A DNA stretch of 64,000 nt, taken from the NCBI RefSeq assembly GCF_009914755.1, contig NC_060930.1. One strand, given 5' to 3'. The first letter of the stretch is position 1; every line of letters begins with the position of its first letter. A program made the position numbers and the translations under genes. This DNA comes from the human T2T-CHM13v2.0 reference genome, Homo sapiens. This document shows, piece after piece, positions 38,822 through 63,346 of this stretch. A model generated the notes under the pieces. The model saw nothing but the letters and a program-made list of their open reading frames with translations. It was not told where the DNA came from and did not search any database.

Positions 38822-38919
38822 GAGGCAATTTCTGTGCTGGTTATGATTTGAAGGAGCTGGCCCACAGCTCAACCTTGCTTAAATTGGAACAAGATGTCAC
38901 CAGTGGTCTTGCTCCCATA
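38822..38919 (+). pseudogene. Exon remnant of a crotonase/enoyl-CoA hydratase gene: (G)GNFCAGYDLKELAHSSTLLKLEQDVTSGLAPI
   Basis: CTAAC branch-like motif at 38798, T-rich tract, AG at 38820-21 and donor GTAGGT at 38920. The 98-nt exon (phase 1 to phase 0) is open and encodes the crotonase oxyanion-hole motif FCAGxDL. Confidence 0.85.
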
Positions 38920-40139
38920 GTAGGTACTAGAAAATAGATTCTTGATGGATGAATTTGAGGCCATTCCGGGAGACTCTTGTTAGTTTCCATGACTAGAAAT
39001 GACACCACCATTCTGTCATTGCGTTTCAAGTGCCTTGTACCACGCAGGGAGTGTGAGTTGTAGTGGGTGGTTTTTTTTTTCTTTTCAATTTTTTTTTATT
39101 TCAAGCAATGAAGGTAATGGCAAAGAATTTTTCATAAAAACAAGTGACAAATTTCACTCGAGTTACTGACACATAGAAGGAAAAAATTAGTTTTTGCTTT
39201 GAAGCTAACCAGAAACAAATGGGACTGTTTCTCCAAAGGAAAAGTTGGAGTTTAGTTATGATACATCCCCTCCCAGAAATCTAGGAAATTATACATACTG
39301 TACCCTCTGTTTATAAGAATATGAATAACATGATTGTGTGCACAGGGTCAATTGCAGTTCAGATGAGAATTTACCGCTGCTGAGCTGCAAATGGATAAAG
39401 ACAGAGAGAGCTGCTGTTAACCCCTTATTAACACAGCCCAAATGCCTTTCTTTAAAGGAAAACTTAGACCAAAAGCTCCTTGAGGCCAGGAAAGATGTCT
39501 TCAATATCTTTAGATATTTCCCCACCTCCAGTGCGGGTCCCGGTGGTTGGCACACAGTAGCTGTTCAAGTGAATGAACGAATCACTTTTGATCAAAAGAA
39601 GAAGCAGGGCTTGTTTTTCAAATTGAGAAATGGGAGTGGTTGTATTGTAGCTGCATTGTTGAGTCTCCTGTGTGCCACGTGATCCAGCAGGAGAATCATA
39701 ACCGGGCTGAGCCCACTCTCTCCCATGCTGACAGTGCTCTTAGCAGCCGCGGCCACAACACGACCTCAGTGACAGCAGCCACGGCGGGCCAGGATCTGTG
39801 CTAAGGGTTTTCCATGCCTCCGTTGCACGTACCCTAACAACCACCCAAGGAGGGGGTGTTGTCTTTGTATCCCAGAACGGTTAAGCAGCTTACTTGGGAT
39901 CACACAGTAAGTAGCGTGGCAAGAACTTGCACTCAAGCTTGTCTGAGTCCAAGAGCCACCCCAGCACACTGCTCACCATGGTCTTCCCAAAGGGATCGGG
40001 CTTATTCAGAAAGCCGATCAATTGGAAGGACCACGTAGTCACCGTAGAAGAGCTTGGGAAGAGTGTCAGGCAGTCTCAGGGGTATTTAGGGTCTCCAGGG
40101 TCCACTCCCTGGCATTCCTGGAGGGCTCTAGTGAAAGCG

Positions 40140-40510
40140 TGATTATCCCGGGCAGCCTTCAGCAGTGGAACAGCAGGGAACGCCAGGGTTAGGAAAAGCC
40201 GTGGGAGGGAGGAAGAAGCTGGAAGGGAGGGCATGCCCGCCTGAAGCCTGAGTAGCCTCGGGGTGTGCAGGGGTGGGGAGTGGTGTTTTGGACGCCGGCC
40301 TGGCCCCACCCTGCTGACTGCCCCTGTGGGAGGAGGGTGGGGCCGTGAAGGGAGGGTTGTTTATAAGCACCTCTGGCCTTTTAAAAACACCAGCTGATGG
40401 CGCCACTTCCTTCGCTTCTAGTGTAAGGCCCCTCGGAGTCAGTGTCACTCCAGCCACCTGCAGTCCCCAGCCCGGGCTGGGGCGGAAACGCAGGGCAGCA
40501 GAATGAGCGC
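40140..40510. promoter_or_regulatory. GC-rich candidate regulatory element with CTCF-like, ETS and GC-box motifs
   Basis: CCAGCTGATGGCGC (40390-40403), adjacent CACTTCC, GGGGCGG near 40479, locally raised CpG content. Confidence 0.35.
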
Positions 40511-40685
40511 GGGTTTTGAAATCCAGCTGTGATTTGGACCAGCTGTGGGCAGATTACTTAACAGCTCTGTATCCTTCTTGGGAGTAATAATACCCACCTT
40601 ATGCAGTTCTTGTGAGAATCAAAATGAGTCCAAGCATGTGAAATATTTAATGCCTGGCATTTGAGAAATGTTCAATAGTAGTTTC
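40490..40685. mobile_element. MIR
   Basis: gggcagattacttaac..ctgtatcct..taataatacccacctt..gttcttgtgagaatcaaaatgag. Confidence 0.6.
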
Positions 40686-40894
40686 TATTCCAAACTCGCC
40701 CATCCTCAGCCCACAGTCAGGGTGGCTGTTCCCCATTGTAACCCTCTTGAGTGCATTATGATATGCTCTAGGGTATGCTTGAGAGAGGATATGGGAATTT
40801 TCCTTCCACTCTTCACCTAGGTTTTTACATATGATCCTTATTTGTGGAGTGGTAGCAGTAAATCCTTGAGGGCATGCATGCCCACGGTTCCGCT

Positions 40895-41180
40895 CCATGT
40901 TTATTAAAGACCTACTATGTGCAGACACTGCTGGGGACAGAAAAATGAATATGACATAGCCCTGCCCTCAAGAACCTTATAGTCCAGCTGAAGAGATAGA
41001 CATACAAATAAGCAATTTAAATATTAGGCGTTAAATGCTGTGATGATGGTGTGTACAGAATGCTAAGACAGCACAGAGGAAGGACAATGAGCATAATCTT
41101 GGAGCTGAAGATAATGTCCCCAGGAGGGTACGGTCTGAGATGAGTCTTAAAGGACCCAGGAGAAGTTAGCCAAGGTGGTG
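40895..41180. mobile_element. L2 fragment
   Basis: tttattaaagacctactatgtgcagacactg..ccctgccctcaagaaccttatagtc. Confidence 0.65.
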
Positions 41181-41184
41181 ACCT

Positions 41185-41747
41185 TGGACTTATCCAATGA
41201 ACTAAGCTGGAACCGCATTTCCCAGAATTCCCTTCCCTGTGTGGCTCTGGGCTCAGACTGACCCCATGAGAAATGTGCACGAGGTCTGGAGGGTAGAAGG
41301 AAGGCAGCAGCTGTGTAGATGTTCCTTGTGTCAATGTGGAGCCGGGTAGCTCACGCTTGTTTTTGCAGATCCACAGACTTCCCTTGTTGAGGTGAGGCAG
41401 CGCCTTCGACGTCTCTGACTCCTAGGCCAGGTGTGTGTCTAGCTCCGTGATGGAAGGTGCCAGCTTCCCTTGTAAGTGACCAGCATGGGCTCTGCTTCAC
41501 CCTTCCGGGCTCCCAGCTTACCCAGGTGAGTTCTGGTTTGCTCTGGCTCTCCCCACTTCAAGCCTCTTTCCTTCCTAACTTCCTGCCCTGCTGACTTCAG
41601 GCCCAGAGCCAGATGCAGAAACAACAGATGTGTGTAAACTGTTGAACCAGCTCCTACGATTGCATGGGTGGGGGTGGGGAGTCAAATCCTGTAATAAATC
41701 CTTTGTTTGAGATCACATTGAATGATTCTACTTCTCTGGTTGAATCT
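41185..41747. mobile_element. MLT2-like ERVL LTR
   Basis: gcatttcccagaattcccttccctg ... aaatcctgtaataaatcc..ctacttctctggttgaatc. Confidence 0.55.
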
Positions 41748-41748
41748 C

Positions 41749-61302: not shown

Positions 61303-61582
61303 CAGGGCCTGCTTGCACACTGGGTACAGGAGGCACAGTGCCGAGGGCCCATGGTACTTGGAGGAATCCACAAAAGGGTTTTTCTTTCTTTCAAAATCAG
61401 AACAAAAGTAAATTTTTAGGCCAAAGGCTTGGTCTTCATATGTCAGATTCATTATATTTGTCTATGCCAATGTGGCTGCAAATTATAATTTATACATGTA
61501 CACTATTTCCTTTTTTTGGTGGAGGAAAGGTCTAGGAAGACAGAAATGCCCAACGGCCCAGTAGAGTCCTAATGCACCCCTG
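61303..61582 (+). mobile_element. MER96-like hAT element
   Basis: cagggcc..aggcacagtgccgagggccc..ttcaaaatcagaa..cctaatgcacccctg; degenerate 8-bp TSD gtcatagt/atgatagt. Confidence 0.7.
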
Positions 61583-61748
61583 ATGATAGTAATTTATTGG
61601 GAGGCAAACTCCTGCCTGGATTCTGGACCTGGTTTCATTCTGTGCTGTGGGACAGGTGACATGGGCTACATGCTCCTTCAGTCCAACTTCCAGGTTCATC
61701 AGGGTATTTACCTTCAGGCAGTGCAAAGGCAGCACTCAGAGACAGCAA

Positions 61749-62187
61749 TTTTTTTTTTTTCTTTGAGACAGGGTCTCACTCCATCACCCAGGCTGACATA
61801 GGAAGACACAGCCTTTGGCCTAAAAATTTACTTTTTTTCTTCTGATTTTGAAAGAAATAAAAACACTTTTTGGACTCCTCCAAGTACCGTGGGCCCTCAG
61901 CACTGTGCCTCCTGCACCCATTGGGTATAGCGCAGGAGTACAGTGGCGCTATCTTGGCTCACTTCAGCCTCAACCTCCTGGGCTCAAGGAATCCTCCCAC
62001 CTCAACTTCCTGAGTAGCTGGGACCACAGGTAAGCACCACCATGCCTGGCTAATTTTTTGTATTTTTAGTAGAGACGGGGTTTTGCCATGTTGCCCAGGC
62101 TGGTCTTGAACTCCTGGGCTCAAGCGATCCTCCCGCCTCAGCATCCCAAAGTGCTAGGATTATAGGCATGAGCGACGGCACCTAGCC
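61749..62187 (-). mobile_element. AluJ-like interrupted by an inverted local copy (61793-61936)
   Basis: The Alu consensus breaks at cacccaggctg and resumes at ggagtacagtgg; TSD ga(c/g)agcaatttt encloses the whole structure. Confidence 0.9.
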
Positions 62188-62404
62188 GAGAGCAATTTTT
62201 AATAGCAACAATGATGGTAATGATGGTAGCTCCATACCAAGTGCTAGGCACTGCGCTGAGAGCATTCCAGTCATTATCTTTTCAGCACTTGCTAGGTTTC
62301 GGGTGTTTTCCTAATATTTCACAGCTGCATTGGGCTCTACTGCAGGGCCTGGCTTTGTGCATGGGGGTTGAGAAGGAGAGCCTGGTATACCTATTGTCAT
62401 CTGA

Positions 62405-62640
62405 TAATAATATAGGGTATATAGAGAGATATGTAGTATATATACTCTGTATAGAGAAGATATATATATATAGTATATATAATATATAGTCAGATGACTA
62501 TATATAAATATATTTATATAATAAATATAAATATATATCTATATAGAATAGATGACAATACATACAAATATATATATTTGTGTATATATGTATATATAGA
62601 GAGAATCAGATGACAATATATACATATATATATAGGTATG
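62405..62640. repeat. TA-rich low-complexity expansion with interspersed 13-mer copies
   Basis: Direct inspection. Confidence 0.85.
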
Positions 62641-62770
62641 TTTTTAATTAGAAACAGGGTTTCACCATGTTGTACAAGCTGGTCTTGAACTCTTGGGCTC
62701 AGGCAATCCTCCTATCCCAGCGTTCCAAAGTGCTGGAATTGTAGGCACGAGCAACCACGCACAACTGGCC
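62640..62770 (-). mobile_element. FLAM/Alu left monomer
   Basis: gaaacagggtttcaccatgttg..ccaaagtgctggaattgtaggc. Confidence 0.85.
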
Positions 62771-63197
62771 CCCTTCTCATTCTTAAAATATTTTTAAAAA
62801 TCTTAAAAAGCACTTTTTCCTTGTAAGAACTCTACTCACAGTTTTTATTATTATTTTTTTTCTCAATGGCAGGACATCTTATGGGCGTGTCTTGGAGGCT
62901 TTAGCTGGTAGGAGTTGGGCAAGGAAGAGAGAGAAAGGCACTCAAAGCAAACACTTCCCAGGTGTTGATAATAATCTGGATGCTGGGACCTGCACAGGTT
63001 GATTGTGGAGGTTCCTGAGGAAGTCCGCTTGGAAAGGGTGGAACTTAGAGGTCTGCCATAGCGAGCCGACTGTCTCACTTTAGAACATCTGAAGGCTGTT
63101 TCACACAAGACAAAACGAAGCACCTGAATGCCTTCGTCCTGAGCACCCACTAGCCTGGGCTCTGTGGACTTGCTCTCATGCTTGCATTTCCCTGCAG

Positions 63198-63346
63198 GTG
63201 TTCCATTCAGAGACGCCCAAGACCTGAGGCCGCTTGGGTTCATTGGCCTATTGATGGCCTTGGATCTGTCTTGCCAGAGCACCTCCACAGTGTTTTGGAA
63301 ACATGTGGGTTGGGATTGACCAAAGCTGACGTGACTAATGGCAAAG
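63198..63346 (+). pseudogene. Degraded exon of the same gene: (G)VPFRDAQDLRPLGFIGLLMALDL-fs-LPEHLHSVLETCGLGLTKADVTNGK
   Basis: Acceptor tttccctgcag with a phase-1 start that matches the preceding exon. It aligns without gaps to the recalled family motif GVPLIDGGTVRLPxLIGLSRALDL-ILTGRPV.A.EAL..GLANRVVPDG, apart from one 1-nt frameshift after ALDL. A GT lies at 63346. Confidence 0.75.

What the first reader, a model, noticed from the sequence alone, without database searches (positions are those of the whole stretch)
38822..63346. Hidden multi-exon pseudogene of a crotonase/enoyl-CoA hydratase: probable lost ancestral metabolic gene
Seen in sequence: three + strand segments spread over about 25 kb (38822-38919, 48065-48183, 63198-63346). 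Each has an AG acceptor, they lie in the correct order, and their phases match (phase 0 joins phase 0, phase 1 joins phase 1). Spliced, they read GNFCAGYDLKELAH..LEQDVTSGLAPI | GLPWKWFSKPVIDAA..LGGNSALLLAD..QQRF | GVPFRDAQDLRPLGFIGLLMALDL..LGLTKADVTNGK. Established knowledge (recalled): this is the motif order of the PRK08259-type crotonase subfamily (CAGxDL; GPMGPSRMxLSKPVIAAV; AGGLELALxxD; RRxGVPLIDGGTVRLP; ALDLILTGR; GLANRVVP). As I recall, the subfamily is intact in fish (e.g. zebrafish zgc:101569) and other non-mammalian vertebrates, and it is distinct from ECHS1, ECH1, AUH, ECI and the ECHDC proteins. Inference: the introns show it decayed in place and is not a retrocopy, so it is likely a unitary pseudogene. 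The ORF track cannot show it as a unit. The last exon(s) should lie beyond 64000.
Basis: partly seen in the sequence, partly recalled or inferred. Interest (0 to 1): 0.88.

Follow-up and report, generated by a model that had tools for sequence, protein, structure and literature searches.

The report
Dead crotonase gene relic beside BMP6
This stretch of human chromosome 6 holds the broken, intron-containing remains of an enoyl-CoA hydratase-type enzyme gene that fish and reptiles still carry intact next to BMP6, so it records an old loss of a metabolic gene in our lineage.

Summary

- **Seg1 (38822-38919)** is homologous to vertebrate "zgc:101569" crotonases: E 4e-6 against 5.8 billion proteins and E 3.7e-8 against the whole human genome.
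- **Seg3** is well supported. It matches exactly the 50-residue exon that fish isoforms skip.
- **Seg2** is the best candidate for its exon, but it is only modestly significant on its own.
- **Last exon:** I found it 16.7 kb beyond the window, with the stop codon in the same place as in turtle.
- **First exons:** those for the first ~101 residues were not found.

The working orthologues are PRK08259-type crotonases (5 of 5 over the cut-off). One fish gene model runs from this gene into bmp6 exon 2, which gives synteny and strand. No close paralogue exists elsewhere in the human genome.

Verdict: a real unitary pseudogene that RefSeq does not annotate. It is a new member of a known kind and of moderate interest. 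The age of the loss could not be fixed without other mammalian genomes.

The parts
38822..38919 (+). Relic exon 3 (seg1). It matches turtle P0236 residues 102-134 and includes the FCAGYDL motif. It is 98 nt long, the length that its phases and residue span require, and it carries no stop or frameshift. AG at 38820-21, GT at 38920-21.
   Evidence: E 4e-6 and 2e-5; E 7e-12; E 3.8e-13; 25/33 identical to turtle; score 123.3 against a null maximum of 19.6; E 3.7e-8 genome-wide, 65% identity.
48065..48183 (+). Probable relic exon 4 (seg2). It matches turtle residues 135-182. It is 119 nt where about 145 are expected, needs at least two frame changes, and shows GGNS where orthologues have GGLE. AG at 48063-64. 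The donor position reads GG.
   Evidence: FSKPVIDAA 7/9, rank 1 of 41,850; LGGNSALLLAD 6/11, rank 1. Both sub-ranges were chosen after the fact.; acceptor-anchored score 33.0, rank 1 of 2,957 AG sites, but 2 of 22,421 null sites reach it.
63198..63346 (+). Relic exon 5 (seg3). It matches turtle residues 183-232. It is 149 nt where 150 are expected, with one -1 frameshift after ...ALDL. AG at 63196-97. A GT lies at 63346-47.
   Evidence: first 24 residues 12/24, score 43.2 against a null maximum of 24.3; last 16 residues rank 1.; score 42.4, reached by 0 of 22,421 null sites; fish exon-skipping forms lack exactly residues 183-232.
63347..64000 (+). Start of the last relic intron, which runs off the window. 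The relic's LAST EXON lies outside the window and so cannot be entered as a part of its own. Its window-equivalent coordinates are 80737-80940 (chr6:7582737-7582940, or L017 6737-6940). It matches turtle residues about 243-305 and ends ...GEGREGKL followed by TGA, as turtle ends ...GEGRGGKL followed by stop. The alignment shows two in-frame stops and two frame changes. A candidate acceptor AG lies at 80735-36 after a pyrimidine tract. AATAAA lies at 80970-75.
   Evidence: E 1e-5 with turtle; E 2e-5 to 8e-3 with five others; 0.17 with the loach P0222. (64.7 against a null maximum of 40.3). (last 29 residues 17/29, score 47.0 against a null maximum of 19.5).. (E 0.25 genome-wide).

Best explanation
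The locus is a unitary pseudogene. It is the remains, at its ancestral place, of the vertebrate gene known in zebrafish as zgc:101569. That gene encodes a PRK08259 / mycobacterial EchA5-type member of the crotonase (enoyl-CoA hydratase/isomerase) superfamily.

In fish and reptiles the gene encodes a protein of about 300-310 residues. It has an N-terminal extension and, in several species, a C-terminal SKL/AKL-type peroxisomal signal. In at least one fish it lies directly upstream of bmp6 on the same strand.

In the human lineage the gene stopped being maintained and decayed where it stood. Four of an inferred six coding exons are still recognisable over 42 kb of the + strand, ending 11.9 kb upstream of BMP6. 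The remains carry frameshifts, deletions, stops and a lost splice donor. The first about 101 codons are unrecognisable or deleted.

The relic makes no enzyme. Its value is as a record of a lost metabolic step.

- Shown here: homology, exon structure, lesions, synteny and the lack of a human paralogue.
- Inferred: that the loss is ancient (of the order of 100 million years, before placental mammals diverged), and that the enzyme was peroxisomal.
For: **Homology**
- Seg1 finds fish fragments P0121 and P0122 at E 4e-6 and 2e-5 in 5.8e9 proteins.
- P0122 then finds 1250 relatives. The best 120 are vertebrate proteins, many of them named Zgc:101569.
- tblastn of 7 orthologues against 114 kb finds seg1 (E down to 7e-12). 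It also finds a collinear last exon with 6 of the 7 at E 1e-5 to 8e-3 (0.17 with the seventh).
- Anchored and ungapped profile tests support seg3 strongly and seg2 weakly.

**Family**
- 5 of 5 orthologues are over the NF006108 cut-off and under the EchA19 cut-off.
- The closest solved structures are 3qka (EchA5), 4qfe, 4z0m and 3r9q, at E 2e-82 to 1.5e-79.

**Exon structure**
- 6 of 38 short forms lack exactly residues 183-232, which is seg3. Three more lack 184-233.
- P0122 loses homology after residue 182, and P0121 within two residues of 134.
- The seg1 exon keeps the 98 nt its phases require.

**Synteny**
- The arowana model P0201 joins crotonase residues to a tail that matches human BMP6 exon 2 at 61.5% identity, E 1e-28.
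- Three further orthologues carry the UniRef name 'Bone morphogenetic protein 6'.
- The relic lies between SNRNP48 and BMP6 on the BMP6 strand.

**Unitary status**
- All other human hits are known crotonase genes or pseudogenes at 27-49% identity.

**Phylogeny**
- The relic groups with turtle and lizards (support 0.93). Its terminal branch is 1.19, against 0.07-0.12 for the sauropsids.

**Peroxisomal signal**
- The lizard orthologues end in SKL or AKL, the loach in SKL and the turtle in GKL.
Against: - Seg2 alone is near chance level. About 0.15-0.26 chance hits of its anchored score are expected in the collinear interval.
- In an unanchored frameshift-tolerant scan, seg2 is below the top six plus-strand hits and seg3 is at the top of the noise (44.0 against null maxima of 38-42).
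- BLAST and HMMER do not pick up seg2 or seg3 as significant on their own.
- The exons for residues 1-101 were not found in the 58.8 kb upstream of seg1 that I held, up to about 1 kb from the end of SNRNP48.
- A bacterial family HMM sees only seg1, at E 0.02.
- Exon boundaries of orthologues were inferred from protein isoforms and truncated models, not from their genomic DNA.
- Synteny rests on one merged gene model and three names.
- Decay is uneven between exons and this is unexplained.
- Absence of the gene from other mammals rests on my recall, not on a call.
Confidence: 0.93

Rival explanations
1. The segments are chance resemblances to crotonase motifs in non-coding DNA.
For: - Seg2, and the second half of seg3, are individually within or near the noise of frameshift-tolerant scans.
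- Unrelated sequence gave comparable scores: an L1 fragment at 29304 and an Alu-containing stretch at 61888.
Against: - Seg1: E 4e-6 in 5.8e9 proteins, and 25/33 identical to turtle.
- The last exon has the same C-terminus and the same stop position as turtle.
- Seg3 starts exactly at an orthologue's exon boundary with an AG, and no null site reaches its score.
- All four are collinear, on one strand, in compatible phases, beside BMP6 as in fish.
Confidence: 0.01
2. It is a duplicated or processed pseudogene of a crotonase gene that still works elsewhere in the human genome. It would then not be a unitary loss.
For: The human genome holds many crotonase genes and several annotated pseudogenes of them: HADHAP1, HADHAP2 and an ECHDC2 pseudogene.
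Against: - The exons are separated by 9-17 kb with splice sites, so it is not processed.
- The best identity of the turtle protein to any other human locus is 27-49%, against 65% at seg1.
- No human locus reaches the PRK08259 cut-off.
- The relic branches with turtle and lizards inside the vertebrate clade.
Confidence: 0.02
3. The gene is dead, but part of the relic (seg1, and perhaps the last exon) has been kept under selection for another role. It might be an exon of a non-coding or truncated transcript, or a regulatory element upstream of BMP6. This would add to the best explanation, not replace it.
For: - Seg1 has no lesion, keeps its exact length, and is 25/33 identical to turtle. Seg2 and seg3 are 27-55% identical, although they are the best conserved parts in working orthologues (Fisher p 0.008, uncorrected).
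- A lncRNA, LOC105374906, starts 800 bp downstream of seg1 on the same strand.
- A RefSeq 'silencer' fragment overlaps seg3.
Against: - Seg1 was the exon by which the locus was ascertained, so it is expected to be the best kept.
- GC content differs between exons and could explain faster decay through CpG loss.
- No lncRNA exon overlaps any relic exon.
- No conservation or expression data were available.
Confidence: 0.1
4. Seg2 is not the true exon 4. The true exon is either lost or is the open frame on the minus strand at 59573-59481, turned round by a small inversion.
For: - The minus-strand frame scores 53.2 with the exon-4 profile, against a null maximum of 43.8 and 33.0 for seg2.
- Its ungapped score for residues 143-168 is 39.5, against 21.5-26.9 elsewhere.
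Against: - tblastn gives E 0.5-0.9 and HMMER E 5.6 for it.
- The residue range was chosen after the fact.
- It has no pyrimidine tract or in-frame AG, and it lacks the FSKPVI and GG motifs.
- No other minus-strand exon was found.
- Seg2 has the AG, both phases and both motifs in order.
Confidence: 0.15

Closest known systems
Vertebrate zgc:101569-type crotonase. Example: zebrafish F1R2G5_DANRE, named in PMC8919083. Here represented by P0123-P0241, including turtle P0236, anole P0237 and bowfin P0231.
   Same: - Same motif order, and 55% identity to turtle over 137 comparable positions.
- Same exon boundaries where they could be inferred.
- Same C-terminus and stop position as turtle.
- Same neighbour and strand relative to BMP6.
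   Different: - The human copy has stops, frameshifts, about 26 nt missing from exon 4, a lost donor, and no recognisable first 101 codons.
- The Glu of the GGLE motif reads S.
- It cannot encode the enzyme.
Bacterial PRK08259 (NF006108) crotonases and the mycobacterial EchA5 structures (PDB 3qka, 4qfe, 4z0m, 3r9q).
   Same: - The vertebrate orthologues pass the PRK08259 cut-off. They match EchA5-type structures at E 2e-82 to 1.5e-79.
- Seg1 aligns to a Variovorax member at 45% identity.
   Different: - The bacterial proteins lack the N-terminal extension of about 45 residues and the SKL/AKL ends. The relic is much closer to the vertebrate proteins (76% against 45% in seg1).
- No substrate is known to me for this subfamily. 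That is recall, not a call.
Classical human unitary pseudogenes, such as GULOP and UOXP (recalled examples).
   Same: Each is a gene lost in place with its introns retained. Working orthologues survive in other vertebrates and no paralogue remains.
   Different: - This one is not in the RefSeq annotation of the window.
- It appears older and more eroded.
- The function of the lost enzyme is unknown.
Human crotonase genes ECHS1, ECHDC1-3, AUH, HADHA, EHHADH, and CDY/CDYL.
   Same: Same superfamily fold and Pfam families (PF00378/PF16113, as precomputed).
   Different: - Only 27-49% identical to the turtle orthologue over single exons.
- None reaches the PRK08259 cut-off.

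Membership tests
Crotonase superfamily, PRK08259 (NCBIfam NF006108) subfamily | The full-length protein scores over the curated cut-off of 273 bits. 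| tested here: met
   This was tested on the working orthologues. 5 of 5 (P0236, P0237, P0231, P0125, P0222) score 365-378 bits. Their next family, EchA19, scores 190-201 against its cut-off of 400.
Crotonase superfamily, PRK08259 (NCBIfam NF006108) subfamily | The human relic's own translation matches the family model. | tested here: inconclusive
   - Seg1 alone gives E 0.12 and 11.9 bits at model positions 58-79. The other three pieces tested gave no hit.
- Pfam gave no crotonase hit for any of the 4 pieces.
- The pieces are 32-49 residues long, so the full-length cut-off cannot be reached.
Crotonase superfamily, PRK08259 (NCBIfam NF006108) subfamily | Conserved motifs in order: FCAGxDL, SKPVIAAV, AGGLEL..AD, GVPLIDGGTVRLP, ALDLILTGR, GLANRVVP. 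That these define the active site is recalled knowledge. | tested here: met
   The order is kept in the relic and each motif is partly decayed: FCAGYDL intact; FSKPVIDAA; LGGNSALLLAD; GVPFRDAQDLRPL; ALDL; GLGLTKADV. The orthologues show the full motifs.
Unitary pseudogene | Disabling lesions in the coding sequence. | tested here: met
   - Frame changes in seg2 (at least 2) and seg3 (1).
- Two in-frame stops and two frame changes in the last exon.
- About 26 nt missing from exon 4.
- GG at the donor after seg2.

Unitary pseudogene | Exon-intron structure of the parent gene is kept, so it is not a retrocopy. | tested here: met
   - The segments are 9.1, 15.0 and 17.4 kb apart, with AG acceptors.
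- Seg3 equals residues 183-232, which 6 of 38 short orthologue forms lack exactly; 3 more lack 184-233.
- The boundaries at 134|135 and 182|183 coincide with the points where P0121 and P0122 lose homology.
- Genomic DNA of the orthologues was not available.
Unitary pseudogene | Lies at the place syntenic with the working orthologue. | tested here: met
   - P0201 (Scleropages) continues from crotonase residue about 227 into a sequence 61.5% identical to human BMP6 exon 2, E 1e-28.
- The relic ends 11.9 kb upstream of BMP6 on the same strand.
- This is indirect: it rests on one merged model plus three 'Bone morphogenetic protein 6' names.
Unitary pseudogene | No working paralogue of the same subfamily in the same genome. 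| tested here: met
   - The turtle protein against the whole T2T genome gives 14 matches. Twelve are known crotonase genes or pseudogenes at 27-49% identity. The two unannotated ones are this relic.
- The family model gives 23 matches, none over the cut-off.
- Caveat: only the best candidates are scored, and closed regions are not shown.
Unitary pseudogene | Working orthologues in other species. | tested here: met
   - 83 proteins of 290-310 residues from fishes, three lizards and a turtle align throughout. On the 138 test columns, turtle is 73-78% identical to fishes.
- Function itself was not tested. One paper lists the zebrafish gene as a candidate peroxisomal enzyme.
Unitary pseudogene | The time and the lineage of the loss are known. 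| not testable with these tools
   - No mammalian genomes other than human were available.
- The hit list was cut at 120 of 1250, so presence or absence in mammals, birds and amphibians was not seen.
- The rough estimates range from about 90 to more than 200 million years.
Processed pseudogene | Intronless copy of an mRNA, usually with a poly(A) tail and away from the parent locus. | tested here: not met
   The exons are spread over 42 kb with splice sites. There is no parent gene in the genome.

The most novel reading that the evidence does not exclude
The relic marks the loss, in the stem of mammals or of placental mammals, of a whole peroxisomal enzymatic step. That step would be carried out by a PTS1-bearing EchA5/PRK08259-type hydratase or isomerase, which fish and reptiles have kept and which has close bacterial relatives. 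The strikingly uneven decay (seg1 intact, the catalytic exons ruined) would mean that part of the locus remained under selection after the enzyme died, as an exon or a regulatory element of the BMP6 upstream region.
Probability: 0.1. Interest if true: 0.6.

Novelty: new member of a known kind. Interest (0 to 1): 0.5.

Why it matters
- **A difference in the peroxisomal enzyme inventory.** Humans, and by my recall all placental mammals, lack an enzyme gene that fish and reptiles conserve strongly. A zebrafish peroxisome survey lists that gene as a candidate peroxisomal enoyl-CoA hydratase/isomerase with no named human counterpart (passage in PMC8919083). This bears on the use of zebrafish as a model for human peroxisomal disease.
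- **A missing annotation.** The relic fills a RefSeq gap between SNRNP48 and BMP6, where only a lncRNA is listed.
- **A datable loss.** Shared lesions across mammals could date the loss once multi-species alignments are examined.
- **Limits.** It does not change any principle. Unitary pseudogenes of this kind are well known.

Tried and rejected
**Searches that led nowhere**
- NCBIfam and Pfam scans of the four pieces gave only a weak crotonase signal, for seg1 alone.
- The NF006108 model run over the whole human genome did not score the window at all, because only the 24 best candidates are scored.
- A bacterial PRK08259 protein and an HMM of 120 bacterial members saw seg1 only, at E 2.7e-4 and 0.02.
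- The first protein search, with the bacterial protein, listed only bacteria.
- Two Atlas searches gave generic crotonase clusters and no usable ids.

**Scans of the locus**
- The unanchored frameshift-tolerant profile scan has a noise ceiling of about 40-60. It could not by itself establish seg2 or seg3. I therefore used anchored tests on ranges fixed by the exon boundaries.
- Candidates for the N-terminal exon were rejected. The one at 29304 is a fragment resembling L1 ORF2 (identified from recall). The one at 27885 is 8/60 identical.
- A candidate at 61888 was rejected. It is 'GPS' followed by what I recognise from memory as an Alu-derived frame; it overlaps a masked repeat and has no AG.
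- The minus-strand frame at 59573-59481 was judged to be chance, though this is not excluded.

**Dating**
- Dating by Poisson distance (about 90-135 My, my arithmetic) and by the LG+gamma branch length (longer) disagree. The individual exons also disagree with each other. I give no firm date.

**Literature**
- Seven searches were answered.
- No paper mentions a human relic of this gene, LOC105374906, or a pseudogene between SNRNP48 and BMP6.
- PMC8919083: I read passages only.
- PMC11315340: search listing only; I judged it irrelevant from the title.
- Gene-loss tables in supplements of other papers could hold this locus and could not be seen.
- GENCODE/Ensembl pseudogene annotation could not be consulted.

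Full report
**1. What the sequence shows**

The three segments are in the window as described.

- Seg1 is a clean frame. Window 38824-38919 reads GNFCAGYDLKELAHSSTLLKLEQDVTSGLAPI. An AG precedes it at 38820-21 after a T-rich run, and GTAGGT follows it at 38920.
- Seg2 (48065-48183) starts after TAG at 48062-64. It reads GLPWKWFSKPVIDAA in one frame, LGGNSALLLAD in a second and QQRF plus one base in a third. The two bases after it are GG, not GT.
- Seg3 (63198-63346) starts after CAG at 63195-97. It reads (G)VPFRDAQDLRPLGFIGLLMALDL, and then, after the loss of one base, VLPEHLHSVLETCGLGLTKADVTNGK.
- None of the segments lies in a masked repeat.

**2. Getting to the right relatives**

- Family models saw only a faint crotonase signal in seg1.
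- A genuine bacterial PRK08259 protein came from a Variovorax plasmid (343 bits against a cut-off of 273). It aligned to seg1 at 45% identity, E 2.7e-4, and to nothing else.
- Used as a query, that protein returned only bacteria among the 120 proteins listed.
- Seg1 happens to lie in a stop-free stretch of 106 codons. Searching residues 64-106 of that stretch found two fish fragments:
  - Cyclopterus lumpus, 117 residues, E 4e-6, 73% identity.
  - Boreogadus saida, 177 residues, E 2e-5.
  
  Both E-values are for 5.8 billion sequences.
- The second fragment then found 1250 proteins at E <= 1e-10. The best 120 are teleosts, gar, bowfin, sturgeon, three lizards (Salvator, Anolis, Elgaria) and a turtle (Carettochelys). 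Most are 290-310 residues long. Many are named Zgc:101569, 'probable enoyl-CoA hydratase' or 'enoyl-CoA hydratase EchA19'.
- No mammal, bird or amphibian is in that list. The list stops at 120 of 1250, so their absence is not shown.

**3. Testing the exons**

I joined the window to its flanks to make 114 kb, from 1 kb beyond the end of SNRNP48 into BMP6 exon 1.

*BLAST and HMM results*
- tblastn with seven orthologues found seg1, at E down to 7e-12.
- It also found a new collinear hit at window-equivalent 80770-80937. This was E 1e-5 with turtle, 2e-5 to 8e-3 with five others, and 0.17 with the loach P0222.
- That hit ends ...GEGREGKL followed by TGA, where turtle ends ...GEGRGGKL followed by stop. 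An AATAAA lies 30 bases on. A pyrimidine tract and an AG lie at 80735-36.
- An HMM of 83 full-length orthologues gives seg1 E 3.8e-13. The other pieces, cut short by their lesions, are not significant.

*Position-specific tests.* I used a profile in turtle numbering. The null was the minus strand, the reversed sequence and the complemented sequence.

| Segment and test | Result |
|---|---|
| Seg1, ungapped | 123.3; null maximum 19.6 |
| Seg3, first 24 residues, ungapped | 43.2; null maximum 24.3; 12/24 identical |
| Last 29 residues, ungapped | 47.0; null maximum 19.5; 17/29 identical |
| Seg3, anchored on its AG | 42.4; reached by 0 of 22,421 null AG sites |
| Seg2, anchored on its AG | 33.0; rank 1 of 2,957 AG sites between seg1 and the last exon; reached by 2 of 22,421 null sites |

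For seg2, about 0.15-0.26 such hits would arise by chance in the collinear interval. Seg2 is therefore the best candidate for exon 4, but it is not proven on its own. Its two best motifs each rank first of 41,850 positions, but I chose those ranges after seeing them.

The unanchored frameshift-tolerant scan is noisy. The results were seg1 122, last exon 64.7, seg3 44.0 and seg2 below 35.2, against null maxima of about 38-44.

**4. Exon structure of the parent gene**

I had no genomic DNA for the orthologues, so I used their short isoforms and truncated models.

- Of 38 short forms, six lack exactly turtle residues 183-232 and three more lack 184-233. That block is seg3 to the residue.
- It must be 150 nt long, because skipping it keeps the frame. 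Human seg3 has 149 nt.
- P0122 loses homology after residue 182, which is the end of seg2. P0121 loses it within two residues of 134, which is the end of seg1.
- The seg1 exon has the 98 nt that its phases and residue span require.
- N-terminal gaps ending near residues 42-48 (four forms; two more near 51-53) suggest two further upstream exons, so six coding exons in all.
- The two upstream exons were not found by tblastn, HMM, gapped scan or ungapped scan in the 58.8 kb upstream that I held. The best hits there are a fragment resembling L1 ORF2 and noise.

**5. Family**

- Five of five orthologues tested pass the NCBIfam PRK08259 (NF006108) cut-off, at 365-378 bits against 273. They fall far short of the EchA19 cut-off, at 190-201 bits against 400. 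The 'EchA19' name given by NCBI to many of them is therefore a near miss.
- The closest solved structures are EchA5-type enoyl-CoA hydratases: 3qka, 4qfe, 4z0m and 3r9q, at E 2e-82 to 1.5e-79. Mitochondrial ECHS1 structures are far lower, at about 92-98 bits.

**6. Synteny**

- The window lies between SNRNP48 and BMP6 on the BMP6 strand. The last relic exon ends 11.9 kb before the BMP6 start.
- Four orthologues carry the UniRef name 'Bone morphogenetic protein 6'.
- One of them is P0201 from Scleropages. It runs from crotonase residue about 227, just short of the end of the seg3-equivalent exon, into a tail 61.5% identical to human BMP6 exon 2, E 1e-28.
- Such a merged model requires the two genes to be neighbours on one strand, as in human.

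**7. Unitary status**

- The turtle protein searched against the whole T2T genome gives 14 matches.
- Twelve fall in HADHAP2, CDY1/1B/2A/2B, ECHDC2, HADHAP1, AUH, ECHDC3, ECHS1 and an ECHDC2 pseudogene, at 27-49% identity.
- The two unannotated matches are seg1 (65% identity, E 3.7e-8) and the last exon.
- No human locus reaches the PRK08259 cut-off.
- Caveat: only the best candidates are scored, and closed regions are hidden.

**8. State and age of the relic**

- Over 137 comparable positions, the relic is 55% identical to turtle, 50-52% to lizards and 47-52% to fishes. On the same columns, turtle is 86-88% identical to lizards and 73-78% to fishes.
- In a tree, the relic is sister to turtle plus lizards, with 0.93 support for the tetrapod group. 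Its terminal branch is 1.19, against 0.07-0.12 for the sauropsids.
- A Poisson estimate with neutral rates I recalled gives roughly 90-135 million years of neutral decay. The LG+gamma branch length implies more.
- Single exons disagree widely. Seg1 is 76% identical and the last exon 61%, while seg2 and seg3 are 27-55%.
- I therefore state only that the loss is old. From recall, no mouse or other placental gene of this subfamily is known, which would place the loss before the placental radiation. This was not tested here.

**9. Function of the lost gene**

[quoted passage not shown] I read passages of PMC8919083 only.
- The lizard orthologues end in SKL or AKL, the loach in SKL, the turtle in GKL and the human relic in GKL.
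- All of them also carry an N-terminal extension of about 45 residues that bacteria lack.
- A peroxisomal, or dual, location is thus an inference. The substrate is unknown.

**10. Known or new**

- RefSeq lists only the lncRNA LOC105374906 here. Its exons, at 39717-39906, 41369-41525 and 65057-67043, do not overlap the relic exons.
- Seven full-text searches found nothing on a human relic.
- Supplements and GENCODE could not be checked.
- I file it as a new member of a known kind, the unitary pseudogene, and rate it of moderate interest.

Noticed in passing
window 59481-59573, minus strand: A 57-codon open frame containing ...APSRVRPKGLLAAIDSFKPPKESSLTLLSDLR... scores higher with the exon-4 profile than seg2 does (53.2, against a null maximum of 43.8). 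However, tblastn gives E 0.5-0.9 and HMMER E 5.6. It has no acceptor-like context and no DNA similarity to seg2. It is probably chance. An inverted relic of exon 4 is not excluded.
   Followed up: partly
window 38822-38919 compared with 48065-48183 and 63198-63346: Decay is very uneven. Seg1 is lesion-free and 76% identical to turtle. The exons that are best conserved in working orthologues (seg2, seg3) are 27-55% identical and carry indels. This may reflect CpG content, ascertainment or residual constraint. It was not resolved.
   Followed up: partly
window 39717-64000 and beyond (lncRNA LOC105374906, to window-equivalent 67043): The annotated lncRNA starts about 800 bp downstream of seg1 on the same strand. 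It runs inside the relic's introns without using any relic exon. Whether it descends from the old transcription unit is unknown.
   Followed up: no
window 63133-63297: A RefSeq 'silencer' fragment feature overlaps the first two thirds of seg3.
   Followed up: no
window 29295-29474: A fragment whose translation resembles LINE-1 ORF2 (identified from recall) partly overlaps a masked repeat. It gave the best spurious match to the N-terminal exon profile. I looked at it once and did nothing further with it.
   Followed up: yes
L017 6970-6975 (window-equivalent 80970-80975): An AATAAA lies 30 bases after the relic's conserved stop codon. It could be the old polyadenylation signal or chance.
   Followed up: no
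proteins P0157, P0200, P0201, P0219: Public records name these fish crotonases 'Bone morphogenetic protein 6'. P0201 is a merged model of the crotonase and bmp6 exon 2. These are annotation errors in the source databases, though they served here as evidence of synteny. The NCBI name 'EchA19' for the family is also a near miss.
   Followed up: yes
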